A stretch of 34,456 bases of DNA from Candidatus Woesebacteria bacterium RBG_13_46_13 (GTDB lineage Bacteria; Patescibacteriota; Microgenomatia; UBA8517), in assembly GCA_001791995.1 (NCBI GenBank), contig MGFR01000002.1:1-34456 (forward strand), written 5' to 3'. How positions within the stretch are numbered: the first letter of the stretch is position 1; each line of letters begins with the position of its first letter. A program made the position numbers and the translations under genes. This document shows positions 10,629-32,916 of this stretch, in pieces. The notes under the pieces are model-generated. The model did not search any database. It was not told the origin of the DNA and saw nothing but the letters and a program-made list of their open reading frames with translations.

Positions 10629-11725
10629 GAATTGCCATCATTGGGGTCCGCGGTGTCCCCGTCATCTATAGCGGCTTTGAGACGCTGGCAGAGAAGCTCT
10701 CCGTGGGTCTGGTAAGAAAGGGGCACAGTTTAACCGTCTATTCGAGAAGGGGCTATGTCAACCCCGAGAGAAGCTCTTACAAAGGGGTAAAAATAATTAC
10801 TCTTCCTGCCCCCGGAGGCAAAAACTGGGAAACTTTTGTGCACAGCCTCGCTTCGACCTTGCACGCCTGTATTAAGGGGAAATATGAGCTTATTTACTTT
10901 GTCGGGGTAGGCAGCACAATTTTTAGTATTTTACCCAGGATTTTGGGCATAAAAACCGTGGTCAATGTCGACGGACTGGATTGGCGTAGGGAAAAGTGGG
11001 GGCCAGTCGGGAAGGTTTATTTGGCTTTTTCGGAAGTTCTGGCCTGCTTTCTTCCCAACAGGGTTATTACCGACTCCTTATATATAAAGAGGTATTACCG
11101 CAGAAAATACGGGAAAGAAACCGTTTATCTGCCTTACGGCTTCGAACCTTATACGGGTAAAAACAGGCAAATACTGGCCAGGCTAGGACTTTCCGCGGGA
11201 AAATATATTGTCTGGGTGGGTCGGCTGGTGCCGGATAACCATACGGATGAGCTTATTAGGGCATTTAAGAGCCTTGAGACCCCCTTGAAATGTGTTGTCG
11301 TGGGAGATGATCGGCTAAACGGTGGATATAAGCGGAAAATTAAAAATCTTGCCGGGGGTGAGGCTCGCATCATCTTTACAGGCTTTTTGGACAGGGAGAA
11401 GTATTCGGCTTTGGTTAAAAACGCTTTGTGTTATGTGGAGACCAAGCGCTCCGGAGGGACCCATCCCTCCTTGGTCGAGGCGATGGGCTTTGGGACTTTG
11501 GTTATCTCGAATAGCCATTCGGCAAACAGAGAAGTTGCGGGGGCCGGAGCGATTTATTACCAGAAGGGATCGGTCAAAAGTTTAGTCAAGGCGGTAAAGG
11601 TGGCCGTTAAAGGGCGGGGTACGGCCAAACTTCGGAAGATTAGCCTGAACATTGCCAAAAGCAGATATTCTTGGACTCCAATAATTAGGGCATACGAAGA
11701 TCTGTTCAGCAGCCTTACTGGATAG
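10625..11725 (+). CDS. Glycosyltransferase family 4 (DUF1972/Cps2T-WchF-like N-terminus)
   Basis: MRIAIIGVRGVPVIYSGFETLAE, NVDGLDWRREKW, VGRLVPDN, GGTHPSLVEAM, YSW. Confidence 0.9.
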   Translation: MRIAIIGVRGVPVIYSGFETLAEKLSVGLVRKGHSLTVYSRRGYVNPERSSYKGVKIITLPAPGGKNWETFVHSLASTLHACIKGKYELIYFVGVGSTIFSILPRILGIKTVVNVDGLDWRREKWGPVGKVYLAFSEVLACFLPNRVITDSLYIKRYYRRKYGKETVYLPYGFEPYTGKNRQILARLGLSAGKYIVWVGRLVPDNHTDELIRAFKSLETPLKCVVVGDDRLNGGYKRKIKNLAGGEARIIFTGFLDREKYSALVKNALCYVETKRSGGTHPSLVEAMGFGTLVISNSHSANREVAGAGAIYYQKGSVKSLVKAVKVAVKGRGTAKLRKISLNIAKSRYSWTPIIRAYEDLFSSLTG

Positions 11726-12527
11726 AACCGATGACGAAGTCTTGGAAGTTGAAATTGGGTGTCCAAATTTCCAGGAAGGAGCCGCTGTTTAAGAGCTTAA
11801 GTTCCCCGAAATAGAAGGCCCCGTCCCTCTTCAGTGCTTTAATTTTGGCCTTTACGCTAATATACCTGACGGAATCTAAGGTTCCCGCATTGAAATTTCC
11901 GTAATAGTCATTTTCAATGACCGAAGTCGCTTTTTGGTTCTTGGAAACTACTTCAAAAACCACATTTTCACCGTCAAAATATTTATCGCCTATCTTTATC
12001 GCGTCATACTCCCAGGGGTAGGCATACTTTTTGGTTAGATAAACCGTTTTTTCCACATATTCATCGTTGAACGGCTCTTTGGATATTTCCATAATGGTTC
12101 CCGTAATCAGAGTTTTGTTGGTCTCAATTTCGATGGGTGTTCCGACAACCAAACTCGAACGCTTGAACGAATATTTTTGGCTCTTGTCGTTGTAGCTAGC
12201 CGAAAGCTTAACTGTTAAGAATATATCGTACTTGTTATCGGGGCGGGTTTTGTCGAATGAAGGGTAATAGCGAACCGAAGCTATTTGCGCAACCGGCTGT
12301 CCCAAGAGCGAGTATTCGGTATCATCCTTGGCGATTGCCCGTAAAAAGTAGGCATCGGGCCTTGAGGTTACTGACCACCAGAGACCTTGGGAAACCTGCA
12401 TTTTAATATAGACGACCCGGTTATTTGGCTTGGCAAGTTTTAATAAAGCGAAGAGGACAATAAGAGCAGGAATCAAGACCAGAAAAACGAGCAGCAGGGG
12501 TAGGGCTTTCTTTCTTTTCGCCGACAT
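11715..12527 (-). CDS. Membrane-anchored hypothetical protein (DUF4330-like), copy 1
   Basis: Basic N-terminus plus TM; two internally similar beta-rich halves. Clear paralog of 23208-24011 (QGLWW, VRYYP, YDIFLTVKL, VGTPIE, FNFQDF). DUF label is by resemblance only. Confidence 0.65.
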   Translation of the reverse strand: MSAKRKKALPLLLVFLVLIPALIVLFALLKLAKPNNRVVYIKMQVSQGLWWSVTSRPDAYFLRAIAKDDTEYSLLGQPVAQIASVRYYPSFDKTRPDNKYDIFLTVKLSASYNDKSQKYSFKRSSLVVGTPIEIETNKTLITGTIMEISKEPFNDEYVEKTVYLTKKYAYPWEYDAIKIGDKYFDGENVVFEVVSKNQKATSVIENDYYGNFNAGTLDSVRYISVKAKIKALKRDGAFYFGELKLLNSGSFLEIWTPNFNFQDFVIGSIQ

Positions 12528-12562: not shown

Positions 12563-13639
12563 ATGAAAATCGTCAGACACTTCGCGATTATTTTTACAAC
12601 AATTATCCTTTTCTTGGGAGGGATTGGTTACAATCTTCTGCCTGTAGAAATAATAGCGGTACTCATCTCTTGTTATCTCTGCCTTCTGGCTGCAGTTGGC
12701 AACAAAAGATTTCTTTTACCTAAGGGTTTTGGAGTATTTGTCCTTTTCTTAGCTGCCCTGGTGGCTCATTCGTATTGGGAAGAAAAAATCCTCGTTACGA
12801 ATTATTTCATCATGTATTTGGCTGGGGGATTGTTTTGGATAGCCTTTTATAACCTTAGGTCTTATTTCGAGAAATATTACGGCTTAATGATTGTTTTACT
12901 GGCAATTGCCTTCGGGTTTTTATTTTTTTTGTTCGCAAAAGGAGGCGATATCGGAACCTGGAGCCTGTTCTTAACCTCCTCAACCTACAAGAACCATAAC
13001 CACATCGGAGATATCTGGGCTTTAACGCTTGCGGTAATTTTCTATACATCTCTTAATAAGGCAAAACTTTGGCATTTCCTTTTAGGATTGGTGGGAGTGT
13101 ATCTGATGGCAATTTCCCTATCCCGTTCAGCCTATGCCGCGCTTTTTGCTGGCGTTATTTTTGTAGCCTTCAGAAAGGGATGGATTAAAAAAGCCAGATA
13201 TGTTTCTTTGGCTACCCTGACAGTCTGTGCTGCGCTTTTGGTTTATGCCGGAACCCAAAAGACAACCTTGTTTGCACGACCTTACTATATTCAAGCCGTC
13301 GTTGGCTTTTTAAGGAATCCCTTAGGGGTAGGGATGGGTAATTTCAGCATTATCTCTGCGGATCCAATAAATCACCTGCTGGGTTTTAAAGATTTCGCCG
13401 GTTTTACCCACAATATCGTTCTTGAAGTTCTGGTTGGTTTGGGAATTTTCTCTCTCCCTTTCATCATCTGGTTCTTTCTCGTCTGCAGGAGCGTCTGGCA
13501 GAAATCTAAAACCAGGCTGTTCTCTTCAATGATATTCGTAGTGCTCTCGGTAAACCTGTTGCTTGACAGTACTTATAATATTCCTACAATGTTATGGCTT
13601 TGGTTTATGTCCATCGGGCTTGCCCAGGCGGAAGAATGA
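12563..13639 (+). CDS. O-antigen ligase-like (Wzy_C) membrane protein, type B copy 1
   Basis: Multi-TM; NHNHIGD, SLSRSA, RPYY...NPLGVGMGNF, THNIVLE. Paralog of 29916-30980. Confidence 0.82.
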   Translation: MKIVRHFAIIFTTIILFLGGIGYNLLPVEIIAVLISCYLCLLAAVGNKRFLLPKGFGVFVLFLAALVAHSYWEEKILVTNYFIMYLAGGLFWIAFYNLRSYFEKYYGLMIVLLAIAFGFLFFLFAKGGDIGTWSLFLTSSTYKNHNHIGDIWALTLAVIFYTSLNKAKLWHFLLGLVGVYLMAISLSRSAYAALFAGVIFVAFRKGWIKKARYVSLATLTVCAALLVYAGTQKTTLFARPYYIQAVVGFLRNPLGVGMGNFSIISADPINHLLGFKDFAGFTHNIVLEVLVGLGIFSLPFIIWFFLVCRSVWQKSKTRLFSSMIFVVLSVNLLLDSTYNIPTMLWLWFMSIGLAQAEE

Positions 13640-14427
13640 AGGTTGATAAAGAATATTTTCTGAGCCAGGCGGGGTTTAGTGTCAGGGTGGTTTTTAAACC
13701 CACCGAGTTCGGCTACGCACAGAAAGTGCTGATTTCTTCCTTTCAAAAAGCTTGGGCTGGTTTTCTTTCCCGCCGTTCAAAAAAGGTTGATTTTACGGTT
13801 GTTGTTTCTTCGGACGCGGGAGATAAAGAAATCCTGGTCAGGGGGGGCAGGCGATATTATTACCTGACCTATACGCGTGATTTTGCGCACGGCAAAATCG
13901 ACACCTACTACACGGTTAACCTCAGGGGACTGGACCTTCTTTTTAGGGAGATATTTGCCTTTCTTATTCGCAAGGACGGCTTTTTGCTGCACGCATCAAG
14001 CGTGGTGGACAGAAAAGGAGCACTCTCCGTTTTTATGGCCCGTTCGGGAGGGGGAAAGACCACAACAGCCAGTCTTTATAAGGGTGGAGGCTATTATAAA
14101 TTTGGCGACGACATTATTCTTGTCAGGAAAATGTCTGGACGTTGGAAATTTTTCAGCCCCCCTTTTATTGAGAAAAACGAGATTCCTCGTAAAAACCAAG
14201 CTTCGAGGGCAAAGTTTTATGTAGTCAAAAAGGCGCTCAAACCCAACCTTGCTCTTATAAAGGAAAAGAAAGTTCTGCTTCCTTTTTTGCTTGGACAAAT
14301 ATGGCTAAACCGTGGTACTTTAGAAAAACCGGTATTAAAGACCGCTTTATTGTTCCTGATGGAAAACAACTTCTCTGAACTTGGGGTAGTCCTTAACGGT
14401 AGAAAGATGCGAAAGATTATCAAATGA
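13636..14427 (+). CDS. HPr kinase-related P-loop kinase (putative peptide kinase)
   Basis: GFLLHASSV, Walker A ARSGGGKTT, KFGDDIILVR. Start at ATGA overlap 13636; immediately upstream of PqqD. Confidence 0.78.
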   Translation: MKVDKEYFLSQAGFSVRVVFKPTEFGYAQKVLISSFQKAWAGFLSRRSKKVDFTVVVSSDAGDKEILVRGGRRYYYLTYTRDFAHGKIDTYYTVNLRGLDLLFREIFAFLIRKDGFLLHASSVVDRKGALSVFMARSGGGKTTTASLYKGGGYYKFGDDIILVRKMSGRWKFFSPPFIEKNEIPRKNQASRAKFYVVKKALKPNLALIKEKKVLLPFLLGQIWLNRGTLEKPVLKTALLFLMENNFSELGVVLNGRKMRKIIK

Positions 14428-14681
14428 GGCTAAAAAAAGGGGTTTTGATTCAAAAATTGGGCGACACGTTCGTTGCCTACGACAACGATGCCTCCGTAAT
14501 GCATGAGCTAAACGAGGTGGCCTACATTATTCTTTCGGAGATTGAAAAAAGAAAAGGCAAAAAGGAAATCTTACTAAAAATAATGAAAGCCTTTTCCGTT
14601 TCCGAAAAAGAGGCCAAAAAAGACTTGGACGAGTTTGTTCAGGATCTTAAAAAGGTCGACTTGATTGTGGAGAAGAAATAA
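14424..14681 (+). CDS. PqqD family protein / RiPP recognition element (RRE)
   Basis: 85 aa with three-strand then three-helix layout; HELNEVAYIILSEI...EILLKI...FSVSEKEAKKDLDEFVQDL...LI matches the PqqD pattern. Confidence 0.88.
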   Translation: MRLKKGVLIQKLGDTFVAYDNDASVMHELNEVAYIILSEIEKRKGKKEILLKIMKAFSVSEKEAKKDLDEFVQDLKKVDLIVEKK

Positions 14682-15805
14682 TCCAGTGCATCTTTTGAAA
14701 AGATAACCCTTAGCCGTTTGGATAACGGAAGGGTTGAAAAAACCAGAGAAAAAATTAACTTTTTTCCCGCCTCGATGGCTTTTGTATCGGTGTCAAAAGG
14801 GGAAGTACGAGTAGCATAAAAACCTGCCAGGCGCATAAAAAGAGGGATTCGGGCTTCTTTGGGTAAACTTAGGCCCCCAAAAAACTTGTTAAACACCAAG
14901 ACAGAGGGGTAGATAATATACTCATAACCATATCTCCTTGCCCTATTTAAGACGATATCCATATCGGGTTTGTCTTGGCCAATAACGTTTGCGATAAGCT
15001 CCATCCTATGGATTCCCTGAAAATTGTGATGGAAAAGGTGCAAAAGGAGGTAAAGGAGCAGATCTTCTTTTATCAGTATGGGGAACCGGTTATTCCCGAC
15101 TTTTACCGCTTTTGCATTAGAAAATAATTCACGCCCGTAGACGGCGATTGAAGGAATTAACTCATTAAATCTTAAGGCTTTGGTAAATCCTATCGCCGGA
15201 GCAAAATGAACGTCGATTATTACGGCATAGGGTTTTACCTTCTTGACGAAGGAAATTTGGGAATATTTATTTACCGGTTTATGCAAAAGTGTGGGTTCGA
15301 TTGCCTCATAACCCAGCTGCTTAAAAATTTTTCCGATTTGGGGAAAGTCGTGTAGTCTAACAAGGATGTCGGCGTCAAAATAAAGTCTCTTGGGAATTTT
15401 CCCCGAATAGATAAGTTGAATCGGTAACCCCTTAAGCAGCACATAGTCGATATCTGATTTCTTTAGCCTTTTGTTTAAAAGCCCGAGCTCGGTTAAATAG
15501 GTGAGGGATTGGGAAAGATAAACGTGCGAAAGCGCTATCATCCGTCCATTACGTAAAACTTTCTCGACTTTTCCCAAGATTTCATTTTTGTTTAATATTC
15601 CGTCGGACTTGAGGTTGTTGTCGCCTTTGGTAATATAATTTGCTTCATCGGGAATATATATCACCCTGTGGACGATGACCTTTTCTTCTCTCCTGAAAGC
15701 AACAACGTCGTTTACTTTGTAAGATCTGCCTTTTTTGATAAACGGTTTATCGGTGGGCAAAATTAAGGGGGCCATGCTTGTGCCGAAGGATAAAGGGTGG
15801 CGCAT
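14639..15805 (-). CDS. S26 (S24/S26) serine peptidase fused to NTP_transf_5-like nucleotidyltransferase, copy 1
   Basis: N-terminus GTSMAP...DVVAF...VHRV...ITKGDNN...ILGKV (Ser/His type, no TM); C-terminus VLLKG...KRLYFDADILV...IDVHF...LLLHLFHH. Confidence 0.85.
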   Translation of the reverse strand: MRHPLSFGTSMAPLILPTDKPFIKKGRSYKVNDVVAFRREEKVIVHRVIYIPDEANYITKGDNNLKSDGILNKNEILGKVEKVLRNGRMIALSHVYLSQSLTYLTELGLLNKRLKKSDIDYVLLKGLPIQLIYSGKIPKRLYFDADILVRLHDFPQIGKIFKQLGYEAIEPTLLHKPVNKYSQISFVKKVKPYAVIIDVHFAPAIGFTKALRFNELIPSIAVYGRELFSNAKAVKVGNNRFPILIKEDLLLYLLLHLFHHNFQGIHRMELIANVIGQDKPDMDIVLNRARRYGYEYIIYPSVLVFNKFFGGLSLPKEARIPLFMRLAGFYATRTSPFDTDTKAIEAGKKLIFSLVFSTLPLSKRLRVIFSKDALDYFFSTIKSTFLRS

Positions 15806-15943
15806 CTAACAGGTACGGGCCGCGAGCATGAATTCCGAATCGATAGCGCTTCTGACTACACTTTTCCCATAGAAAGAAATTATGCTGACCTTTGAGGATT
15901 TGATCTTGGGCCTATGGTAACGCTTTAGCTTTTCGCCAGACAT
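15806..15943 (-). CDS. Putative RiPP-like precursor peptide P2 (45 aa)
   Basis: Manual translation MSGEKLKRYHRPKIKSSKVSIISFYGKSVVRSAIDSEFMLAARTC*; its TAG directly abuts the peptidase-NTase ATG. Paralogous to P1 and P3. Confidence 0.85.
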   Translation of the reverse strand: MSGEKLKRYHRPKIKSSKVSIISFYGKSVVRSAIDSEFMLAARTC

Positions 15944-15948
15944 AATTA

Positions 15949-16089
15949 TTAACCGCCTGAAACGCCTATCGCCAAAAGATATTCCGAATTCGAAGGATTT
16001 CTATAGGAACTTTCTCCGTAAAACGAAACAGGGGAAACTTTTGAGGATTTTATCCTTGGCTTGAGATAGATCCTTTTGGGCTTTGTCAT
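15949..16089 (-). CDS. Putative RiPP-like precursor peptide P1 (46 aa)
   Basis: MTKPKRIYLKPRIKSSKVSPVSFYGESSYRNPSNSEYLLAIGVSGG*; ATG overlaps the upstream stop (ATGA); 5-nt gap to P2. Confidence 0.85.
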   Translation of the reverse strand: MTKPKRIYLKPRIKSSKVSPVSFYGESSYRNPSNSEYLLAIGVSGG

Positions 16090-16709
16090 TGAGCCTTTCT
16101 TATCAATTCTAAATATAGTCTTTCCTCGGATTGAGTGTCAATAAGACTGATTATCTGCGTCAATTCGACAGTGTCGCCGATTCCGATATCTGTAAGCTTA
16201 ATTTGTTTTATTCCATCTGCTGTATTCTGTGTAACTACCACTGCGTTCACATCAGCTGGGGTAAACCTGGTTTTGATTTTTTTGTCGTCTTTGGCTATTT
16301 GGATAAAGTATGCATACTGGGTCTGTTTGGTTTGGTCCTCGGGCCCAAAATCAACTACTTCACCGAAGAGCTTCAACGATACGGATGCGTCCTTGATAAG
16401 CTCCTTCCTTTCCGACAAGGAATTAAACTGTGTTGCGTAATCAAACAATTTCTGCTCGGCGGATCTGGTTTGCGAGGGAGAAGGGGTGTTTGTGGGTATT
16501 GCGACATCTCGGGACTCCTCCTGGGTCGGAGCGGGAGACGGCCTGAGCAATTTAAAGAAGCTGCCCAGGCTTCCATTGGACACGTAATAGACGATCTCGG
16601 CCACAATTACCAGAAAGAATATTCCCAGAACAATAAATAGGATTTTTCTCAGGGGATTTCCGCCTTGGGGCGTTACTATCGCGCTTGTTCCTTGGGCAGG
16701 TCCATCCAT
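16086..16709 (-). CDS. Single-TM membrane-anchored hypothetical protein, copy 1 (directly upstream of the precursors)
   Basis: TM ILFIVLGIFFLVIVAEIVYY, Pro/Thr linker, C-terminal domain homologous to 32305-32916. Start ATG 16709 preferred over 16745. Confidence 0.75.
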   Translation of the reverse strand: MDGPAQGTSAIVTPQGGNPLRKILFIVLGIFFLVIVAEIVYYVSNGSLGSFFKLLRPSPAPTQEESRDVAIPTNTPSPSQTRSAEQKLFDYATQFNSLSERKELIKDASVSLKLFGEVVDFGPEDQTKQTQYAYFIQIAKDDKKIKTRFTPADVNAVVVTQNTADGIKQIKLTDIGIGDTVELTQIISLIDTQSEERLYLELIRKAQ

Positions 16710-16750
16710 TTTTTCAGTATAATAGACAAAGCTATTTAAATGCAATTAAA

Positions 16751-18352: not shown

Positions 18353-18384
18353 ATTTGTTATCTTTTGATAAGAAGGATTTACCC

Positions 18385-18996
18385 ATGCCCAAAAAACTTC
18401 TTTTTATACTCCTTTTAGTTAGCTGTGTATTGCTGGCGGCTACGGTAGGCTATATCGTCTACAGACTGAGGCAGGGTGAGATTTCGCGGGAGAATGCCTA
18501 CAAGGGAGGCTTGATTACACAAAAGGAAAATTTGGCCTTAAGCCCCATCGAGAAGTTTTCGAATCCCCAGGGAGCTTTTTATAGAATTAAAGGGAGTTTT
18601 GCAAACGAACTAAAATTGGCTGAAGGCAGGCAAGATAATGCTCTGGCTGGCGAGTTCATTCTTAGGGGAGATACCCTGAAGCGGAAACTTCCGGTCCTTC
18701 TCGGCCTTGGAAACGGCTCTTTTTCTCTGGCAACGTATGACGGTTCATTTGATGGTCAATCTACCTGGGTGCAGGTTAAAACCCAGGACGGGACGGGACA
18801 ACTTATTGCAGGGGAAGAGGTTTTGCTAATGGTAGAATATCTTTTCCCCGGTGTTTCTCAATTGCCGGATTATTTCTTTAAAGAGCAGGACGTTTTCGAC
18901 AGTCTATCCGATGATATCGGCCTGGGGAAATTCAGCTATAATATTCCGAGTGATTTTGTTCTTTATCCGACCGCAGTCGGAATTATTAAAAAATGA
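18385..18996 (+). CDS. Single-TM membrane-anchored hypothetical protein
   Basis: AAGGA then ATG 18385; MPKKLLFILLLVSCVLLAATVGYIVY; stop overlaps the next start. Confidence 0.75.
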   Translation: MPKKLLFILLLVSCVLLAATVGYIVYRLRQGEISRENAYKGGLITQKENLALSPIEKFSNPQGAFYRIKGSFANELKLAEGRQDNALAGEFILRGDTLKRKLPVLLGLGNGSFSLATYDGSFDGQSTWVQVKTQDGTGQLIAGEEVLLMVEYLFPGVSQLPDYFFKEQDVFDSLSDDIGLGKFSYNIPSDFVLYPTAVGIIKK

Positions 18997-20600: not shown

Positions 20601-20642
20601 AGTTCTGCAGGAGGTTAGAATAACAAAACGAAGAAGGCTACT

Positions 20643-21895: not shown

Positions 21896-21949
21896 ATTAT
21901 TATCCTCTACATTATTATTGATACAAATTTTCCGGAAAGTCAATAAAAC

Positions 21950-23257
21950 GTGCTGAAATTAATCAAACAAAATTCCGTCTTGGCGCTTACGCTGTTGGCT
22001 ATTTTTTTGGTTAAAATTCCCCCTTTTTATTTTCTCGGAATCACTAGTACCTTATTAACTAGTCATACGCTGGCCCGCTATCTAATCTTTGCTATTTTCC
22101 TTTTTAGTGCTTGGCAGGTTTTCTTCGGGAAGGGAAAAGCTATCCCGCAGAGCGGGAAAAATCTTATTCTTCTCTTTTTGGCCTATTTTTTCTTCCAGTC
22201 GTTTTCGGTTGTCGGGGCCGAGAGTGTCGAGGCCTTTGCCAGGGTCTATAAAGACATCGTTTTTCCCGGGTTTTTCCTTTTCGTGGTTTTATTCCAAAGC
22301 GGAATTGCCAGGGGTTTGGCCAAGATTTTTGTTGCCGCAGGTATCATCAACTTCTTTTACCAGATGGCGATACTTCTTGTGCCTTCCGCCTTCAGGCTTT
22401 TCGGGGAGCGCTTTATCTATAGCGAACATTTCCAGCTGGTGGATATCAATATCCAAAGAGGCCGGCTTTTTGTCGAAACCTATGACGAGATTGCTATCCC
22501 GGTTTTACTTTTTCTTCTGTTCAAAGAAAAAAGAAGCAAAGTCCGGCTAGGTTACATTTTGGTCCTGACGATGATTATCGTACCCAGCTTACTTTCCAAT
22601 TTCAGAACCAGGTTCTTGATGCTTTTCTTTGCCTTGGCTGCCTCTTTCTTGATAGTTGTTGGGGGGAGGCTTAAGGCCAAGCTGACCCTTATCGGTTCTC
22701 TTTTTGTCCTGGGATTTGTCGCGCACTCCGTTTCGGTTTACTTTTTTGGGTTTTCATTCCTAAACAGACTGGCGCTTGAGGACCCCGGGGAGGATGTCCA
22801 GACCATCCAGTCCAGATTCGCCAACATTAAAGCCTCTCTCGATATGGGACTGGCCCGTCCTTTAAGCGGGGTGGGGCTGAATAATTACTATTTTCATCTG
22901 TCCGAAGGCAGAAAGGGCCTTTTTTCGATTTCCCTTAATCTGGCCAGGCAGCGTGAGGCGGAATTTGCTTCGGTGAATCCCCACAATATCTTTGCCCAGA
23001 TTGTCTCCGAGACCGGATTGGTAAGCCTTGGCCTTTACCTTTTTATCCTGGGGTTTTTTGCCAAAGGCGATATCGGTATCGTCAAAGGCAAGGACGGACT
23101 GAAAAAATCTCTGGCAATTTCTTTCTGGACTCTATTTATATACTCGATTTTTAACCCCACCACCACACTGGCCTATAATTCTCTTTTCTGGATTTTGCGG
23201 GCCGCCCTTACTCAAGACTTACCACTTCGAAGTCCCGGAAATCGAAGTTTGGGGTAG
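21950..23257 (+). CDS. O-antigen ligase/O-oligosaccharyltransferase-like membrane protein, type A copy 2
   Basis: IPPFYF...HTLAR, VETYDEIAIP, SNFRTR, PLSGVGLNNY, NPHNIFAQ..SETG, NPTTTLAYNSLFW; all shared with 8362-9642. Confidence 0.85.
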   Translation: MLKLIKQNSVLALTLLAIFLVKIPPFYFLGITSTLLTSHTLARYLIFAIFLFSAWQVFFGKGKAIPQSGKNLILLFLAYFFFQSFSVVGAESVEAFARVYKDIVFPGFFLFVVLFQSGIARGLAKIFVAAGIINFFYQMAILLVPSAFRLFGERFIYSEHFQLVDINIQRGRLFVETYDEIAIPVLLFLLFKEKRSKVRLGYILVLTMIIVPSLLSNFRTRFLMLFFALAASFLIVVGGRLKAKLTLIGSLFVLGFVAHSVSVYFFGFSFLNRLALEDPGEDVQTIQSRFANIKASLDMGLARPLSGVGLNNYYFHLSEGRKGLFSISLNLARQREAEFASVNPHNIFAQIVSETGLVSLGLYLFILGFFAKGDIGIVKGKDGLKKSLAISFWTLFIYSIFNPTTTLAYNSLFWILRAALTQDLPLRSPGNRSLG

Positions 23258-24011
23258 ACACCGAAAAGGTCGCTCCCGGCCTGACCGCCTTTTCTTCTCC
23301 GAAAAAATAAAATCCGTCTGCGTATTTAAGCTTTATACTCGCCAGAACGGAAATTTCCAGGGTTGAGCCGGTAGGCAGGACCAAATATCTATCTTCACCC
23401 AGAGTTTTTGAGATATTGGAATAACCCAAAACGTTTTTGGAGATGACCTTAAAAACAACCTCTTTTCCGTCCGAAAATTCATCGCCGATATTTATGGCGT
23501 TATACTCCCAGCGGTAAGCCGGAATTTTTCTCAAGAGCACTTTCTTGTCGACATATTTTTCTTCGAAGGGATTCTCGTTCATATCGATGACAGTTCCGGT
23601 AACCAAAGAACGGTTCAGTTCCAGCTCGATGGGTGAGCCGACGGAGAGGGGGGAGTTTTTGAAAGAATATTTTCCGCCCTTTCCGGATGAGGCCAGTTTT
23701 AGAGTCAGATAGATATTGTATTTATCTTCAATGTCGGGATAATATCTGACATCCGTAACTTGAGCAATGGTTCTGCCCAGAAGATCGTGTTCGGAATCAC
23801 CCCTGCTTATCGCTTTGGCGAACCAAAAGGCGGGTTTTTGGGTGGAGGCCCACCATAGTCCCTGGGCGACCTTGACCTTGGCATAAACGAAATTTTCTTT
23901 GGGGGTCAGAATTTTGAGAACGATAAAGGTGGCGGTGATAACCAGAATTCCGAGAAACAAAGTAATGGCAAAAAGGGAAAATCTTTGCTTTTTGTTTTTG
24001 GGTAAGTTCAC
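23208..24011 (-). CDS. Membrane-anchored hypothetical protein (DUF4330-like), copy 2
   Basis: Paralog of 11715-12527; GTG start. Confidence 0.65.
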   Translation of the reverse strand: MNLPKNKKQRFSLFAITLFLGILVITATFIVLKILTPKENFVYAKVKVAQGLWWASTQKPAFWFAKAISRGDSEHDLLGRTIAQVTDVRYYPDIEDKYNIYLTLKLASSGKGGKYSFKNSPLSVGSPIELELNRSLVTGTVIDMNENPFEEKYVDKKVLLRKIPAYRWEYNAINIGDEFSDGKEVVFKVISKNVLGYSNISKTLGEDRYLVLPTGSTLEISVLASIKLKYADGFYFFGEEKAVRPGATFSVSTPNFDFRDFEVVSLE

Positions 24012-29915: not shown

Positions 29916-30980
29916 ATGAAAAAGTTGTTACCGGTGTTTATTTTGGGGGTATTGCTCATACTTGGCAGCTTGGGAAAAAATTCCGTCTCGTTTTTGCTTG
30001 CCCAACTTTCATTAATTTCCGTTTTGTTTTTTTGGACTCTTTTTACAAGAGAAGCGAAATCTCCTCCGGGATTTATCCTTTATCTAATTTTTCTCGGAAT
30101 TGTTGTTTGGAAATTCATTTCCGGCTCCCGAGACGGCGGTGCGGATTATCTGTATCTTTTTGCAGGTGGGGGACTATTATGGTTTTCCGCATTTAATCAG
30201 AAAGAAAAGTGGGGAGGTTATTTGGAAAAATTGATTCTTGTTTTCGGTCTGGCTATGGCCGCCCTCTATGTTCTCTGGCTAATCTTTTCTCCCGGCCTTA
30301 TCCTGCCGCAGAGCCTTTTTACTTTCTCCTCCGCCTTTAAAAACCATAACCACATAGGAGACTTGTGGGCGATTGTGCTGTTGGTTGTCGCTCGTAAGCT
30401 TGTAGCCAAAGGCGGCCTCTATTATTGGTTGCTTGCCGTTCTGGGACTTATCCTGATGTACCTTTCCTTTTCCCGCTCGGCGGTAGTTGCTTTCCTTGCG
30501 GGAGCAATTTATCTGTTCGGAAACATCGATTATCTCAAGAGGAATAAATACATTTTCACCTTTTTGTCTTTGGGGATAACGGCGGTTTTTCTTCTAACCA
30601 GTATCAACAAATCGATATTTTTCTCAAGACCTTATTTTACTCAGGCCATTTCCGGACTAAGCAAATATCCTTCCGGGGTGGGAATGGGCAACTTCAAACT
30701 CGTCTCCTCGCGTTTTGATGTGGGAACTTTTTCCAGCATTGTCCACAATCTGGTCTTGGAGGTAATGGTGGGGTTGGGCTGGATTGGCGTAGTATTTGTT
30801 GTTTGGCTGGGGAATGTTCTTTGGCAGGGAGTGGTTGGGGCAAAGAATAGAATAGCCTACGCCGTATTTTTAGGGCTTACTGTTAATTTCCTTTTCGATT
30901 CGACCTATCTTATTCCCTCGATGGTCTGGCTTTGGTTTTTGAGTCTGGGTTTAAGCCGTGGGCAGCATAATCTTCGCTGA
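29916..30980 (+). CDS. O-antigen ligase-like membrane protein, type B copy 2
   Basis: KNHNHIGDLW, SFSRSA, SRPYF, GVGMGNF, VHNLVLE, DSTYLIPSMVWLWF; all shared with 12563-13639. Confidence 0.82.
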   Translation: MKKLLPVFILGVLLILGSLGKNSVSFLLAQLSLISVLFFWTLFTREAKSPPGFILYLIFLGIVVWKFISGSRDGGADYLYLFAGGGLLWFSAFNQKEKWGGYLEKLILVFGLAMAALYVLWLIFSPGLILPQSLFTFSSAFKNHNHIGDLWAIVLLVVARKLVAKGGLYYWLLAVLGLILMYLSFSRSAVVAFLAGAIYLFGNIDYLKRNKYIFTFLSLGITAVFLLTSINKSIFFSRPYFTQAISGLSKYPSGVGMGNFKLVSSRFDVGTFSSIVHNLVLEVMVGLGWIGVVFVVWLGNVLWQGVVGAKNRIAYAVFLGLTVNFLFDSTYLIPSMVWLWFLSLGLSRGQHNLR

Positions 30981-32169
30981 TTAACCCCTTTCTTTTCTGA
31001 TTCCGGGTTTTGATAAAAGAGCCAATAGCCAGAGGTATGAAACGCAGCGTTTTGGGAGACAACAACAACCTTAGCTTCAGGGACAAACCTGCGGGAGACA
31101 AAAGAAATACCAGCAGCAATCTTTTGACTCCCTGGAAAACCCTGTTGCCTGTGGAAAACGGGGAAATAAAAAGGGAGAGAAGATAAAGGGCATAGTCCTT
31201 TTTTCGGTTGGGAAAGGCCAGATCAAGATATTTTTCGGAAAGGATTAGGCCCAGATGCACGGGGCTGGGAACTCCGTACTTTTTGGAAAGCCTGAAAAGC
31301 CTTTTCCAGTCAAGACCCGACTCGGTCATTTTTTTTACCAACTCGATTCTAGATAGACCCTCGTAGTTGTGTCTATACCAATGCAGCAGAAGGTAAATGA
31401 CGAAAGTTTCTTTGTCCAGAATCTTAAACCTAGCCGACCCTTGCTTTACCGAGATGGAATTGGTGAAGAGGCTTTGTTCAAATTCCTTCACTTTCGGAAA
31501 CAGGCTGTTAAGATAGGTAAGCTTGGTGAAAGGGATTCCCAGACCTCTGTGTAAATCTACCCTAACGGGGAAAGGAAAAATATTTTTGGTAAGGGTAACC
31601 TCGGAGGCGTTTGTAAATTCCTTTGCGAAAAGGGTAGCGGGGGATTTTGTAAAACCCAAAGGGCTTAAGACCCGAATAACCTTTTTAAAGTCATCCTCGC
31701 GGACGAAAATATCACAATCGGCCAAAAGTCTGTTGGGGGGGGATTTTGCCCAGTGGAGGTAAGGAACAATTCCCCGCAGAACGATAAATTTTATCTTTGC
31801 CCTTTTAAGCGATTTTTCTACCTTTACCAGTTGGGATAGGTAAAAAGAGGATTGGGTATAGTAAAGATGCTCGAGGGCAATACGGGTGGAGCCCCTTTTT
31901 ATGGCGATAACCTTTCCGAGAATCTCGCCAAGGGCTATTTTCTTGTCCGGAAGTAAATTGTTGTCTCCTTTGGTGATGAAGTTTTTTCTGTCCGGGAAAG
32001 TGTAAACAATCCTGTGGGCGATGAGTTTGCCGGAGGCTAAGTAGGCTACGATATTGCCAGTGGAACAATCCTTTTGGTCTTCTATCTCCACCTTGTCTCC
32101 AGGCAAAAAAAGGGGGAACATACTCAGGTTTTGGGAAGTGTTTTTTAGCTGGCGCAGGGGCACTTTCAA
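30910..32169 (-). CDS. S26 peptidase-nucleotidyltransferase fusion, copy 2
   Basis: LSMFP...IVAY...AHRI...ITKGDNN...ILGKV; IVLRG...NRLLADCDIFV...VDLHR...LLLHWYRH. TTG start overlaps the P3 stop (TTGA). Confidence 0.83.
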   Translation of the reverse strand: MKVPLRQLKNTSQNLSMFPLFLPGDKVEIEDQKDCSTGNIVAYLASGKLIAHRIVYTFPDRKNFITKGDNNLLPDKKIALGEILGKVIAIKRGSTRIALEHLYYTQSSFYLSQLVKVEKSLKRAKIKFIVLRGIVPYLHWAKSPPNRLLADCDIFVREDDFKKVIRVLSPLGFTKSPATLFAKEFTNASEVTLTKNIFPFPVRVDLHRGLGIPFTKLTYLNSLFPKVKEFEQSLFTNSISVKQGSARFKILDKETFVIYLLLHWYRHNYEGLSRIELVKKMTESGLDWKRLFRLSKKYGVPSPVHLGLILSEKYLDLAFPNRKKDYALYLLSLFISPFSTGNRVFQGVKRLLLVFLLSPAGLSLKLRLLLSPKTLRFIPLAIGSFIKTRNQKRKGLISEDYAAHGLNPDSKTKARPSRE

Positions 32170-32303
32170 CTTACGACACCGGCCAAAAGGAGAGATTCGG
32201 TATCGGCGCTGTTTCTAAGGGAGTTTCTTGAATAAAACTGAACCGTTTTAATTTTTGAACTTCTGAGCACTGGCTTGGAGTAAACTTTTTTAGCTTTGAC
32301 CAT
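32166..32303 (-). CDS. Putative RiPP-like precursor peptide P3 (45 aa)
   Basis: MVKAKKVYSKPVLRSSKIKTVQFYSRNSLRNSADTESLLLAGVVS*; exact YxxPxL motif; 1 nt after the upstream stop. Confidence 0.85.
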   Translation of the reverse strand: MVKAKKVYSKPVLRSSKIKTVQFYSRNSLRNSADTESLLLAGVVS

Positions 32304-32304
32304 T

Positions 32305-32916
32305 TCAGAAATGCTCCCTCTTAATCTCTAAATTTATAGTATCACCTGCATACGTATCAAGCAAGTTGCTTGAAGTTTTTATGACCACATAGTCCGACTC
32401 CTGAAGGTCTTTTATGGTTGCGTCCTTGGATTCACCCCCCCAGGTCACAATTTTTACTTCCATAATATCCAGCTCCTGTTGGGTAAACCTGTATCTTAAT
32501 ATGGCTCCTTTTTCGTCCTGTAATCCCAGATGGTACACATATTTAACCCTGTCGATTTCCACAATTTCGGGGATCGCTATGGCGGCCAATCCTTGGGCGA
32601 CCGTGGTATATTTAAGCTCCCTGTAAAAGGCGCCGCTCTGTTTGTCGGGAGTCATCCTGTCCAGAAATTTTCTGATTGCGGCCACCCTTTCTTCGTTAAG
32701 AGGTTTGGGAGCCAGGTCTTCAACCCCCAATGGCTGGTACTCTTGGCAGCCCAGAAGGCTGCATTTCTGGAAAGGATTTTTATAAAGGTAGACAGCCTCT
32801 GCCGCAACCGCAGTAACAAGAAGTACAAACAGGCTAAGAAGAACTAATATCAAAACCTTTGACCCCCGCGGCTTCCCTTGGGGTTGTGGTGTCTGGACGG
32901 CAGGTTCTAAATCCAT
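32305..32916 (-). CDS. Single-TM membrane-anchored hypothetical protein, copy 2 (directly upstream of P3)
   Basis: TM ending VAAEAVYLY; C-terminus YVYHLGL..RYRFTQQEL..V..IKDLQESDYV..LLDT..LEIKR aligns with 16086-16709. Confidence 0.75.
   Translation of the reverse strand: MDLEPAVQTPQPQGKPRGSKVLILVLLSLFVLLVTAVAAEAVYLYKNPFQKCSLLGCQEYQPLGVEDLAPKPLNEERVAAIRKFLDRMTPDKQSGAFYRELKYTTVAQGLAAIAIPEIVEIDRVKYVYHLGLQDEKGAILRYRFTQQELDIMEVKIVTWGGESKDATIKDLQESDYVVIKTSSNLLDTYAGDTINLEIKREHF

What the first reader, a model, noticed from the sequence alone, without database searches (positions are those of the whole stretch)
14639..15805. Soluble S26 peptidase fused to a nucleotidyltransferase; 'LA|' as the candidate cleavage site
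The S26 domain has Ser/His motifs (SMxP, HR[VI], KGDNN) like SipW/archaeal-type signal peptidases but has no membrane anchor, so it is likely cytoplasmic. Signal peptidases cut after Ala. All three precursors have a conserved L-A just before the variable tail, and each tail contains Ser or Thr. Inference: cleavage releases 4-6 residue cores that carry a phospho/NMP modification. Alternative: cleavage near FY, giving a ~21-residue core.
Basis: inference. Interest (0 to 1): 0.75.

Follow-up and report, generated by a model that had tools for sequence, protein, structure and literature searches.

The report
Fused leader peptidase–nucleotidyltransferase for peptide maturation
This gene encodes one protein that joins a signal-peptidase-like protease without an N-terminal membrane anchor to a nucleotidyltransferase; it is a fused variant, from the tiny-celled Patescibacteria, of the enzyme set that makes the "linear polyphosphorylated peptides" described in Bacillota in 2026, and the fusion ties the still-mysterious transferase directly to the peptide.

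Summary
ORF 14639..15805(-) encodes 388 aa: an archaeal/ER-type S26B peptidase domain (Ser10/His46/Asp68, no N-terminal anchor) fused to an NTP_transf_5 nucleotidyltransferase. The fusion is conserved in at least 120 protein clusters, where named all Patescibacteria/Microgenomates.

It sits in a conserved module: membrane protein, precursor(s) and fusion on one strand, converging on HprK-like kinase and PqqD. This is the gene set of the LPP pathway (Popov et al. 2026, PMC13381572): LppS peptidase, LppB RRE, LppK kinase, LppN transferase. Here S and N are fused and the exporter is missing. The peptidase domain aligns to LppS (32% identity), with all three proven catalytic residues matched.

About 55 related precursors share a YxxPx[ILV] leader and a hydrophobic-hydrophobic-Ala motif (40/45 versus 4.9 in shuffles) just before a variable tail.

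The rival cut after F-Y-G is the positional homologue of the mapped LPP site and is not excluded. Tail Ser/Thr is not conserved in orthologues (IKAC, VRAC), so the acceptor residue is open. The only relative with a phenotype (PsmN) is needed for hexose on a phosphate, not NMP.

Verdict: new variant of a known kind; interpretation partly supported.

The parts
14639..15805 (-). Gene for the 388-aa S26B peptidase / NTP_transf_5 fusion (LppS-LppN-like)
   Evidence: ORF. 120 homologous protein clusters, almost all 350-455 aa and covering most of the query. AlphaFold2 model with pLDDT 93.9 and pTM 0.92, i.e. one rigid two-domain protein. The public gene call P0001 (347 aa) starts downstream and drops the catalytic Ser.
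15533..15805 (-). S26B (SipW/SEC11/LppS-type) peptidase domain, residues 1-91; catalytic Ser10, His46, Asp68
   Evidence: TIGR02228 E 1e-11. Profile against SEC11A/C E 1e-7. BLASTP against LppS: 32% identity over 92 aa, E 4e-11, with S10/H46/D68 aligned to S29/H68/D93. Foldseek hits to SipA and LexA catalytic domains.
14876..15517 (-). NTP_transf_5 nucleotidyltransferase domain, residues 97-310; K125-G126, D144xD146, D198, H200, H256, H259-H260
   Evidence: PF14907 E 7e-24. Invariant or near-invariant residues. Structural neighbours are LnuA, ANT(2'')-Ia and MenT1, with TM-score normalised to the target of 0.47-0.68.
14639..14875 (-). C-terminal helical extension (residues 311-388) and stop codon; hydrophobic in many homologues
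   Evidence: Helices 322-331, 342-356, 361-368 and 371-386 in the model. The 19-residue Kyte-Doolittle maximum reaches 2.4 in homologues.
15806..15943 (-). Precursor 2: MSGEKLKRYHRPKIKSSKVSIISFYGKSVVRSAIDSEFMLA|ARTC; its stop codon abuts the fusion start (TAGATG)
15949..16089 (-). Precursor 1: MTKPKRIYLKPRIKSSKVSPVSFYGESSYRNPSNSEYLLA|IGVSGG; its start overlaps the stop of the upstream membrane-protein gene (ATGA)
   Evidence: Orthologues in L081 and L086 keep the leader and linker but change the tail (IQTC, IKAC).
16086..16745 (-). Single-pass membrane protein (219-aa ORF; the public call is 207 aa), the conserved partner upstream of precursors; function unknown
   Evidence: Relatives in 44 of the 80 sequences searched (79 loci plus the window), usually directly upstream of a precursor. 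Invariant Glu in the membrane helix. No Pfam or PDB relative.
14424..14681 (+). PqqD-family RRE (85 aa), convergent with the fusion; the 3' ends overlap by 43 bp
   Evidence: PF05402 E 4e-11. The family profile's best PDB hits are the lasso/LPP RREs TbiB1 (4e-9), TfuB1, PbaB1 (9X90) and LppB (9X8Z, 2.7e-5). hhalign against LppB gives 92% probability.
13594..14427 (+). HprK-like P-loop kinase (277-aa ORF; the likely start is Met15 at 13636, overlapping the Wzy stop)
   Evidence: The window protein alone is weak (TIGR04352 E 0.06). At family level, of 20 members 18 hit ScmC TIGR04249, 14 hit HprK_rel_A and 12 hit HPr(Ser) kinase. HprK 1KO7 is the only long PDB match. Invariant H133, S135, G154-K155, T157 and D173; D172 near-invariant.
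12563..13639 (+). Wzy_C (O-antigen-ligase-like) membrane protein, frequent neighbour
   Evidence: PF04932 E 1.5e-8. Found in 41 of the 80 sequences searched.
11715..12527 (-). DUF4330-like protein, frequent neighbour
   Evidence: PF14221 E 3e-5, below cutoff. Found in 36 of the 80 sequences searched.
30910..32169 (-). Second S26B/NTP_transf_5 fusion paralogue (419 aa, 32% identical)
   Evidence: It carries SMxP and all the invariant residues.
32166..32303 (-). Precursor 3: MVKAKKVYSKPVLRSSKIKTVQFYSRNSLRNSADTESLLLA|GVVS
32305..32916 (-). Second copy of the membrane partner protein (203 aa)

Best explanation
The gene encodes a bifunctional maturation enzyme of an LPP-like ribosomal-peptide pathway in a Microgenomates (Patescibacteria) genome. 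LPP means linear polyphosphorylated peptide.

Proposed steps:
1. The three ~45-aa precursors are bound through their N-terminal YxxPx[I/L/V] block by the small PqqD-type RRE (inferred from homology to the lasso and LPP RREs).
2. The HprK-like kinase phosphorylates a hydroxyl residue near the leader/core border (inferred from LppK, PadeK and PsmK; the acceptor here is unknown).
3. The N-terminal S26B domain (Ser10-His46-Asp68), which faces the cytoplasm because it has no N-terminal anchor and is fused to an NTP-using domain, removes the leader from the RRE-presented precursor. The most likely cut is after the conserved hydrophobic-hydrophobic-Ala motif (LLA| or MLA|). This releases IGVSGG, ARTC and GVVS here, and much longer Cys-rich or domain-bearing cores in relatives.
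4. The fused NTP_transf_5 domain (an LppN/PsmN homologue) then, or beforehand, decorates the phosphorylated residue. By analogy with PsmN the net result is a sugar on the phosphate rather than a stable NMP.

The fusion implies that proteolysis and transferase chemistry act on the same bound peptide. The pathway is embedded in, and probably serves, cell-envelope glycan biosynthesis.

Sub-confidences: the system is LPP-like and the S26 domain is its leader peptidase, about 0.85; the cut is at LA|, about 0.6; the transferase acts on the peptide, about 0.65.
For: Domains and catalytic residues.

The fusion is conserved in 120 protein clusters, and all named sources are Patescibacteria/Microgenomates.

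Conserved module across the 80 sequences searched (79 loci plus the window): the fusion family in 75, PqqD in 63, the kinase in 51, the membrane partner in 44, and precursors in at least 28 by profile search plus about 15 more by motif. The synteny is identical in close relatives L080-L086.

Same family set as the LPP core. The paper's own annotation lists TIGR02228, PqqD, NTP_transf_5 and TIGR04249/TIGR04352. LppS is shown there to be the RRE-dependent leader peptidase and LppK to polyphosphorylate core Ser3.

The RRE profile's best solved relatives are the lasso/LPP RREs, including LppB.

Cut site. Anchored on the motif, P1 is Ala in 44/45 (4.17 bits), P2 is L/F/Y (3.2 bits) and P3 is L/Y/V (2.2 bits), while flanking positions carry 0.6-1.4 bits and P1' is never Pro. 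The motif is found in 40/45 precursors against 4.9 in shuffles. Orthologous precursors keep the leader and linker but change the tail.

Stand-alone versions of this peptidase occur in the same phylum with a different RRE-fused tailoring enzyme and the same leader type. This marks the peptidase as the shared leader-removal part.

PsmN precedent for the transferase.

The model shows one compact two-domain protein (pTM 0.92).
Against: - No experiment exists on this protein or any fusion homologue.
- The distance from the YxxP block to LA| varies from 22 to 42 residues. In lasso and LPP systems the RRE-presented site lies at a fixed ~16-17 residues.
- MAFFT aligns the mapped LppA site F-E-T|A-Q-S onto F-Y-G|E-S of the window precursors.
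- One relative (L059) has only 'KK' between the VLA motif and a self-cleaving S74 domain, which would make a meaningless core.
- The window kinase on its own matches HprK families only weakly.
- LppN showed no activity in the LPP study, so the transferase chemistry is unknown.
- No exporter is present in the window or in any of the 79 loci, so the fate of the product is unknown.
Confidence: 0.6

Rival explanations
1. Same pathway, different cut. The S26B domain cleaves right after the conserved leader block, after F-Y-G/S at 17 residues past the Tyr. It gives ~21-residue cores (ESSYRNPSNSEYLLAIGVSGG and so on) with Ser at core positions 2-3 as the phospho-acceptor. The hydrophobic-hydrophobic-Ala motif would then be an internal recognition element or a second processing site.
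For: - It is the positional and sequence homologue of the experimentally mapped LppA site (F at -3, small residue at -1, Ser at +3).
- Its distance from YxxP is fixed, as expected for RRE-presented cleavage.
- In the window's clade P1 is Gly/Ala/Ser in 13/14 precursors.
- In the sister module (QueC-PqqD plus stand-alone peptidase) precursors end 3-5 residues after this point, so any cut there must be here.
- The L059 'KK' case fits better.
Against: - Family-wide the site is not conserved. The residue at offset 17 is small in only 22/45 precursors and Lys/Arg in 14/45.
- By eye, about half a dozen precursors have no small residue at offsets 16-18 (e.g. F-R-K-K, F-Y-K-K, I-D-F-E).
- One orthologue has Asn-Pro across the putative bond (L082).
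- This reading leaves the near-invariant Ala unexplained.
Confidence: 0.25
2. The transferase half serves the surrounding glycan pathway, for example activating or transferring sugar phosphates. It does not touch the peptide, and the fusion only co-localises two activities.
For: - The module is embedded among glycosyltransferases, four Wzy_C paralogues, a Bac_transf and a carbamoyltransferase.
- Wzy_C and DUF4330 are neighbours in 41 and 36 of the 80 sequences searched.
- The pseudomycoidin authors left open that PsmN makes a substrate for a host glycosyltransferase.
- LppN deletion had no effect on the peptide.
Against: - A fusion to the leader peptidase that is stable over 120 protein clusters, with a rigid predicted domain arrangement, argues for a shared substrate.
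- NTP_transf_5 is a core gene of peptide pathways in three settings: paeninodin-type lasso, LPP and this one.
- Its structural neighbours nucleotidylate acceptor hydroxyls rather than sugar 1-phosphates.
Confidence: 0.1
3. The S26 domain is not a leader peptidase for these small ORFs. It would be a housekeeping or self-processing (LexA-like) peptidase, and the small ORFs would be chance ORFs or unrelated.
For: - The Pfam hit is to Peptidase_S24 (weak).
- Foldseek also finds LexA catalytic domains.
Against: - The general base is His, not Lys, and no Lys is invariant in the domain.
- There is no membrane anchor for secretory substrates.
- The small ORFs form a conserved family with translational coupling to neighbouring genes.
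- The precursors lack a hydrophobic h-region.
- LppS provides a direct precedent.
Confidence: 0.03

Closest known systems
LPP (linear polyphosphorylated peptide) gene clusters of Bacillota: LppA/K/B/S/D/N (Popov et al., Nat Commun 2026, PMC13381572)
   Same: - Archaeal-type S26B peptidase without an N-terminal anchor, with a Ser/His/Asp triad (32% identical to LppS).
- A discrete lasso-type PqqD RRE.
- An HprK/ScmC-like kinase and an NTP_transf_5 transferase.
- One to three precursors with an N-terminal YxxPx[V/L/I] block and variable C-termini.
- No lasso cyclase.
- Embedded in polysaccharide loci.
   Different: - The peptidase and the transferase are one polypeptide here.
- There is no MsbA-like exporter in the window or in any of the 79 related loci.
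- A conserved single-pass membrane protein precedes the precursors.
- After the YxxP block the leader differs: K-rich with ..F-[F/Y], a 5-25 residue linker, then hydrophobic-hydrophobic-Ala, instead of HQxIxFETxxS.
- Cores range from 3-6 residues to Cys-rich peptides and self-processing domains.
- The phylum is Patescibacteria, whereas the paper calls LPPs restricted to Bacillota.
- The window enzyme lacks the N-terminal helix that LppS uses to dock on the RRE.
Paeninodin/pseudomycoidin-type phosphorylated lasso peptide clusters (PadeK, PsmK, PsmN; PMC6993621)
   Same: An HprK-family kinase acting on the precursor, a gene for an uncharacterised NTP transferase (PsmN) needed for a further modification of the phosphate, a PqqD-type RRE and a [Y/W]xxP leader.
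   Different: There is no macrolactam synthetase (C) and no transglutaminase-type B2 protease here. A serine S26B protease does the leader removal, and the product is presumably linear.
SipW / archaeal signal peptidase I / eukaryotic SEC11 (MEROPS S26B)
   Same: The catalytic core fold and the SMxP, HR and GDNNxxxD motifs. A preference for a small P1 and a hydrophobic P3 is plausible.
   Different: There is no N-terminal membrane anchor. The substrates have no hydrophobic signal-peptide core. The domain is minimal (~90 aa) and fused to a cytoplasmic enzyme.
HprK-related kinase / PqqD cassettes defined by NCBIfam (HPr-rel-A system TIGR04352/TIGR04353; SynChlorMet ScmC/ScmD TIGR04249/TIGR04248)
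   Same: Pairing of an HprK-like P-loop protein with a small PqqD protein. The window PqqD and the kinase family hit these models weakly.
   Different: All scores are far below the curated cutoffs, and no radical SAM partner is present. Those cassettes are only bioinformatically defined.

Membership tests
LPP biosynthetic gene cluster (PMC13381572) | SpI-like (archaeal-type S26B) peptidase with a Ser/His/Asp triad | tested here: met
   TIGR02228 E 1e-11. BLASTP against LppS E 4e-11, with S10/H46/D68 aligned to S29/H68/D93. Here it is present as a domain, not as a separate protein.
LPP biosynthetic gene cluster (PMC13381572) | Discrete RRE of the lasso/LPP type | tested here: met
   PF05402 E 4e-11. 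Profile hits to TbiB1, TfuB1, PbaB1 and LppB. hhalign against LppB 92% probability. Pairwise BLASTP against LppB finds nothing.
LPP biosynthetic gene cluster (PMC13381572) | HprK-like kinase | tested here: met
   At family level, of 20 members 18 hit TIGR04249, 14 hit TIGR04352 and 12 hit TIGR00679. These include the models used in the paper's annotation. The window protein alone is only E 0.06.
LPP biosynthetic gene cluster (PMC13381572) | NTP_transf_5 transferase (LppN) | tested here: met
   PF14907 E 7e-24, above the gathering score. Fused to the peptidase.
LPP biosynthetic gene cluster (PMC13381572) | MsbA-like ABC exporter (LppD) | tested here: not met
   No ABC domain in any window ORF of at least 100 aa. 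No Walker A plus LSGGQ ORF in the window or in any of the 79 related loci.
LPP biosynthetic gene cluster (PMC13381572) | Precursors with an N-terminal YxxPx[V/L/I] motif and variable C-termini | tested here: met
   Tyr and Pro are invariant in 45 curated precursors (both were required by the search pattern), and position +5 is I/L/F/V.
LPP biosynthetic gene cluster (PMC13381572) | Full leader consensus YxxPxVLxHQxIxFETxxS with the cut after Thr-1 | tested here: not met
   Only Y, P, the hydrophobic residue at +5 and an aromatic residue at about +15 are shared. HQ and ET are absent.
LPP biosynthetic gene cluster (PMC13381572) | Polyphosphorylated linear peptide as the product | not testable with these tools
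   Needs expression and mass spectrometry.
LPP biosynthetic gene cluster (PMC13381572) | Located in polysaccharide biosynthesis loci | tested here: met
   WecG, GT1 x2, GT2, Bac_transf, Wzy_C x4 and a carbamoyltransferase lie around both modules.
Lasso peptide gene cluster | Asn-synthetase-like macrolactam synthetase (C) and transglutaminase-like protease (B2) | tested here: not met
   No such Pfam hit in any window ORF of at least 100 aa.
Type I signal peptidase, S26B (SipW/SEC11) | Catalytic Ser/His(/Asp) motifs in the canonical order and spacing | tested here: met
Type I signal peptidase, S26B (SipW/SEC11) | N-terminal membrane anchor placing the active site outside the cytoplasm | tested here: not met
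   2-44 non-hydrophobic residues precede the Ser in the homologues analysed.
Pol-beta-fold nucleotidyltransferase | G[S/G]-type loop plus a DxD metal-binding motif and a third acidic residue | tested here: met
   K125-G126, D144xD146 and D198 are invariant or near-invariant. Fold neighbours are LnuA, ANT(2'') and MenT. The donor and the acceptor are not testable here.

The most novel reading that the evidence does not exclude
The fused enzyme defines a Patescibacteria-wide peptide platform whose products are not free antibiotics. They would be very short (3-6 residue) or Cys-rich peptides whose phosphorylated residue is turned by the transferase domain into a phospho-sugar link. That would make the peptide a primer, cap or anchor for the surface glycan built by the neighbouring Wzy_C, DUF4330 and glycosyltransferase genes. 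Precursors that carry Hint or S74 self-cleaving domains would be an alternative route to the same short peptides, with an activated C-terminus. If so, the fusion would reveal the long-sought role of LppN/PsmN-type transferases and a new kind of peptide-glycan conjugate in organisms with minimal genomes.
Probability: 0.12. Interest if true: 0.85.

Novelty: new variant of a known kind. Interest (0 to 1): 0.58.

Why it matters
- It extends a RiPP (ribosomally made, modified peptide) class described only in May 2026, and said to be restricted to Bacillota, to the candidate phyla radiation. I found no paper in the searchable library that describes this module there.
- The peptidase-transferase fusion is 'Rosetta stone' evidence that the LppN/PsmN-type NTP_transf_5 enzyme works on the same bound peptide as the leader peptidase. 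Its chemistry is still unknown, and it was silent in the LPP study. The fusion also offers a single-polypeptide system in which to study it.
- The family offers about 55 natural precursor variants with two competing cut sites. This makes the rules of RRE-guided S26 cleavage directly testable.
- The repeated association with Wzy_C and glycan genes, in Bacilli and here, points to an envelope-related rather than antibiotic role.

Tried and rejected
- I tried to model the precursor docked to the enzyme by translating the contiguous in-frame stretch 14639-15943(-). No multimer prediction is available and model coordinates cannot be read, so active-site geometry and docking could not be checked.
- A homologue search with the membrane partner found only itself. 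Its family profile has no PDB or Pfam relative.
- Pairwise BLASTP of the window PqqD against LppB found nothing; only profiles connect them.
- The cluster look-up of stand-alone S26 relatives gave no organism or useful names.
- The profile of the kinase family against the PDB is dominated by P-loop-only ABC hits; only 1KO7 (HprK) gives a longer match.
- Literature searches for PF14907/NTP_transf_5 and for RiPPs in Patescibacteria/CPR found nothing on this module.
- RRE-Finder (PMC7470986) does not mention it.
- A pairwise-identity comparison of leader, linker and core was uninformative because of length normalisation.
- Ser/Thr counts near either candidate site (36/45 and 32/45) do not discriminate between them.
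- Rejected: a lasso peptide cluster (no C or B2 gene), a Sec signal peptidase (no anchor, and the substrates have no h-region) and a LexA-like S24 peptidase (His rather than Lys as the base).
Full report
OBSERVATION

ORF 14639..15805 on the minus strand encodes 388 aa.
- Residues 8-82 match NCBIfam TIGR02228, archaeal-type signal peptidase I (E 1e-11; the score is below the full-length cutoff because only the catalytic core is present). They match SipW more weakly.
- Residues 97-310 match Pfam NTP_transf_5, PF14907 (E 7e-24, above the gathering score).
- A search of 5.8 billion proteins returned 120 clusters, almost all 350-455 aa and covering most of the query. The few with names are called 'nucleotidyltransferase family protein [Patescibacteria group bacterium]', 'signal peptidase I' or hypothetical.
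- In an alignment of 116 of them, H46, R47, G61, D62, D68, D144, D146, D198, H200 and H256 are invariant. M11, P13, K125, G126 and H259-H260-N261 are nearly so.
- The catalytic Ser is present wherever the N-terminus is complete. The apparent exceptions are gene calls that start at the Met of 'SM', plus one degenerate homologue in L075.
- A profile of the family hits human SEC11A/SEC11C (7P2P/7P2Q, E 1e-7). Its Ser, His and second Asp align with S56, H96 and D122 by my count from the alignment; that these form the SEC11A triad is from my own knowledge.
- AlphaFold2 on this alignment gives a confident single compact model (pLDDT 93.9, pTM 0.92). Foldseek relates the C-terminal part to small-molecule and tRNA nucleotidyltransferases (LnuA, ANT(2'')-Ia, MenT1). 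It relates the N-terminal part to SipA and the LexA catalytic domain.

On 'no membrane anchor': in the homologues where SMxP could be located, 2-44 residues precede it, and they are never hydrophobic. However, many members, including the second paralogue in this window, have a hydrophobic last helix (19-residue Kyte-Doolittle maximum up to 2.4). The enzyme may therefore be tail-anchored or peripheral. That would still leave both catalytic domains in the cytoplasm.

SURROUNDINGS

The gene is the last of a tightly coupled minus-strand operon:
- a single-pass membrane protein (16086..16745);
- precursor 1 (15949..16089), whose start overlaps the upstream stop as ATGA;
- precursor 2 (15806..15943), whose stop abuts the fusion's ATG.

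Converging on it from the plus strand are a Wzy_C protein, an HprK-like P-loop protein (13594..14427) and an 85-aa PqqD protein (14424..14681). The 3' end of the PqqD gene overlaps the fusion gene by 43 bp.

It lies at 32166..32303(-), in a second copy of the module: membrane protein 32305..32916, precursor, then a 419-aa fusion paralogue at 30910..32169. That copy has no kinase or PqqD of its own.

The whole window is a cell-envelope glycan region. It carries WecG, two GT1, a GT2, Bac_transf, a carbamoyltransferase, four Wzy_C paralogues, PMT_2 and a GDSL protein. It has no lasso cyclase, no B2 protease and no ABC transporter.

RELATED LOCI

79 loci from GTDB species representatives were fetched with the fusion as bait. 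Where they are named sensibly they are all Microgenomates: Gottesman-, Roizman-, Levy- and Beckwithbacteria.
- Iterated profile searches over the 80 sequences searched (79 loci plus the window) find the fusion family in 75, PqqD in 63, the kinase in 51, the membrane partner in 44, Wzy_C in 41 and DUF4330 in 36.
- Seven metagenomic contigs encoding the closest homologues (44-70% identity) show the same order: membrane protein, precursor(s), fusion, then convergent PqqD, ScmC-like kinase and Wzy_C.
- Of 43 adjacent convergent fusion/PqqD pairs, 39 overlap by 14-95 bp.

The kinase is only weakly recognisable in the window protein but is clear at family level. Of 20 members, 18 hit ScmC (TIGR04249), 14 hit HprK-related kinase A and 12 hit HPr(Ser) kinase. 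The invariant residues H133, S135, G154-K155, T157 and D173 resemble, from my own knowledge, the HprK signature.

The PqqD family profile finds lasso-type RREs as its best solved relatives: TbiB1 (4e-9), TfuB1, PbaB1 and LppB (2.7e-5). These rank well ahead of PqqD itself.

WHAT IT IS

A paper in the library describes this gene set: Popov et al., Nat Commun 2026 (PMC13381572). In Bacillota they define 'linear polyphosphorylated peptides' (LPP).
- The clusters are often embedded in capsular polysaccharide loci.
- They show that LppS removes the leader only when LppB is present, and that S29A, H68A and D93A abolish cleavage.
- The cut follows Thr-1 in ...F-E-T|A-Q-S.
- LppK puts several phosphates on core Ser3, and unphosphorylated precursor is cut poorly.
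- Deleting lppN changes nothing detectable.
- Their supplementary domain table uses the same models that I hit: TIGR02228, PqqD, NTP_transf_5, TIGR04249 and TIGR04352.

Using the LppS sequence from their Supplementary Data 1, the window domain is 32% identical over 92 residues (E 4e-11). S10, H46 and D68 align to S29, H68 and D93.

For the transferase, the only relative with a phenotype is PsmN of the pseudomycoidin lasso cluster, described there as an uncharacterised NTP transferase. It is required for one or two hexoses on the phospho-Ser, and a D134A/D136A mutant is inactive (PMC6993621).

The window therefore carries an LPP-like pathway in which LppS and LppN are one polypeptide. The paper calls LPPs restricted to Bacillota. 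Its data set contains only one Microgenomates protein, an ABC-ATPase/S26 fusion next to an RRE, and not this architecture. Searches of the library found no description of the Patescibacteria module.

THE CUT SITE

45 distinct precursors from the loci, plus 9 more from close relatives, share three features:
- a block Y0-x-K-P3-x-[I/L]5-K..K-K-[I/V]10-K...F15-[F/Y]16;
- a linker of variable length and sequence;
- a hydrophobic-hydrophobic-Ala motif, followed by a tail of 3 to 149 residues.

Anchored on the motif, information content is 2.2, 3.2 and 4.2 bits at P3, P2 and P1, against 0.6-1.4 bits at all neighbouring positions. P1 is Ala in 44/45 and P1' is never Pro. Part of the junction was located with a pattern, so I also tested without curation. 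[LYVIF][LFY]A occurs downstream of the leader block in 40/45 precursors, against 4.9 (maximum 12) in 2000 shuffles. The exceptions carry Thr (L046, LLT|) or Ser (L032, LLS). These are exactly the substitutions an S26 P1 pocket allows. Orthologous pairs keep the leader and linker and change the tail. Examples are window precursor 1 ...GESSYRNPSNSEYLLA|IGVSGG against L081 ...GESSLRNPTNPEYLLA|IQTC and L086 ...|IKAC. This is the classical picture of a RiPP leader: a recognition block, a spacer and a protease motif ahead of a variable core.

I cannot exclude a cut after F-Y-G/S, 17 residues past the Tyr. MAFFT aligns the mapped LppA site F-E-T|A-Q-S onto F-Y-G|E-S. The spacing from YxxP is like that in LPP and, from my own knowledge, in lasso peptides. 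In the window's clade this P1 is Gly/Ala/Ser in 13/14. The sister module described below has precursors that end just after this point. Against it, family-wide the position is small in only 22/45 and is Lys/Arg in 14/45. By eye, about half a dozen precursors have no small residue at offsets 16-18.

I put about 0.6 on LA|, 0.25 on the FY-proximal site and the rest on both or neither.

THE ACCEPTOR AND THE MODIFICATION

It does not hold for the clade. The 14 tails are IGVSGG, ARTC, GVVS, IRVS, YRICN, IQTC, APIS, YNPG, ATIT, VRAC, IKAC, GEIS, SPTSIF and RIC.
- Five of the 14 lack Ser/Thr.
- Position +4 is Ser, Cys or Thr in 12/14.
- The C-terminal residue is Ser, Cys or Thr in 10/14.

This recalls both LPP (acceptor at +3) and paeninodin-type peptides (C-terminal Ser acceptor). 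It leaves open whether Cys can substitute and whether the acceptor sits in the linker. Ser/Thr counts near either candidate site do not discriminate between them. An NMP adduct has no support. A phospho-hexose (as with PsmN) or a transient nucleotidylated intermediate are equally possible.

MECHANISM PROPOSED

Shown directly or by close homology:
- Both domains have intact catalytic motifs.
- The fusion and the module are conserved.
- The peptidase is an LppS homologue.
- The RRE is of the lasso/LPP type.
- The leaders carry the RRE-binding motif.

Inferred:
- RRE-dependent cleavage by Ser10/His46/Asp68 after LLA/MLA.
- Kinase action near that border.
- Transferase action on the phosphate.
- Physical coupling of the last two steps on one RRE-bound peptide, which is what the fusion and the rigid model suggest.

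Unknown:
- Export, since no transporter is present in the window or any of the 79 loci.
- The role of the membrane partner.
- The biological function. The repeated link to Wzy_C and glycan genes, here and in Bacilli, points to the envelope.

OTHER THINGS SEEN

- Some Microgenomates loci hold a second module type: a QueC-like PP-loop ATPase fused to PqqD, a stand-alone 142-146 aa version of this peptidase, and 29-33 aa precursors with the same leader. This supports the peptidase as a general RRE-linked leader-removal part in this phylum.
- Some precursors carry Hint or Peptidase_S74 self-processing domains after the Ala motif.
- The S26 domain alone retrieves 1790 cluster representatives. They are a mix of ~400-aa fusions and 90-200-aa stand-alone proteins.

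VERDICT

The system is a new variant (fused, exporter-less, Patescibacterial, with different junction and core types) of a kind that became known in 2026.

Noticed in passing
window 30910-32916 (-): A second, paralogous module: membrane protein 32305..32916, precursor 32166..32303, and a 419-aa S26/NTP_transf_5 fusion at 30910..32169 that is 32% identical to the first. It has no PqqD or kinase of its own, so it presumably shares those at 13594-14681. Its 3' end overlaps a convergent Wzy_C gene (29916..30980).
   Followed up: partly
window 14639-14681; related loci L001-L079: The fusion and PqqD genes converge and their coding 3' ends overlap (43 bp here). In 39 of 43 adjacent pairs in related loci the overlap is 14-95 bp. 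This is a conserved antisense overlap of unknown significance.
   Followed up: partly
L015 3272-4552 and 6222-6311; L019 3764-5020 and 6126-6566; L075 3254-5392; L076 174-1713 and 9122-10808: A different RiPP-like module in the same phylum: a QueC-like PP-loop ATPase with a C-terminal PqqD domain (413-446 aa), a stand-alone 142-146 aa S24/S26-like peptidase in three of the four loci (L019, L075, L076), and very short precursors (29-33 aa). The precursors have the same YxxPx[ILV] leader and end ...VWTMSY, ...IWTDY or ...VWGGSSSH. I found no description of it.
   Followed up: partly
L007 1853-2419(-), L074 4716-5273(-), L032 1731-2327(+), L019 2932-3513(-), L059 13344-13817(+): Precursor-type leaders fused to self-processing domains. 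Four carry Hint/PT-HINT/intein-type domains beginning with Cys a few residues after the Ala motif. One carries a Peptidase_S74 chaperone domain with only 'KK' between the VLA motif and the S74 Ser. This suggests cores whose C-terminus is generated or activated by autoproteolysis.
   Followed up: partly
window 16086-16745 (-) and 32305-32916 (-): The membrane partner family (N-terminal helix with an invariant Glu and a near-invariant Tyr, a Ser/Thr/Pro-rich linker, and a ~110-aa C-terminal domain with a conserved DLKxGD motif) has no Pfam or PDB relative. It evolves so fast that the word-indexed protein search found only itself.
   Followed up: partly
L075 7848-9116 (+): The most divergent fusion homologue has degenerate peptidase motifs (DEMHP for xSMxP, VKR for VHR, ADN for GDN). 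It is a probable pseudo-peptidase domain retained on an otherwise conserved transferase.
   Followed up: no
window 15683-15805 (-): A public gene call for this protein (P0001, 347 aa, 100% identical) starts about 41 codons downstream, so it lacks the catalytic Ser. The precomputed Pfam annotation sees only the transferase in most homologues, which may be why the fusion has gone unnoticed.
   Followed up: no
window 8362-9642, 12563-13639, 21950-23257, 29916-30980 (+): Four Wzy_C (O-antigen-ligase-like) paralogues in 34 kb. Two are followed by DUF4330-like genes on the opposite strand (11715..12527, 23208..24011). Both families recur next to the peptide module in about half of the related loci.
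   Followed up: partly
window 16685-21943: A block of five ORFs with no Pfam match: 555, 213 and 535 aa on the plus strand, and 238 and 195 aa on the minus strand. By eye, several have an N-terminal hydrophobic segment and Thr/Pro/Gly/Cys-rich stretches, so they may be surface or secreted proteins. They lie between the two peptide modules.
   Followed up: no
PMC13381572 Supplementary Data 1 (OGV92686.1, Microgenomates): The LPP paper's data set lists a 343-aa Microgenomates protein in which an ABC-type ATPase domain is fused to a C-terminal S26B domain, next to an RRE gene. This is a different fusion partner for the same peptidase type in the same phylum.
   Followed up: no
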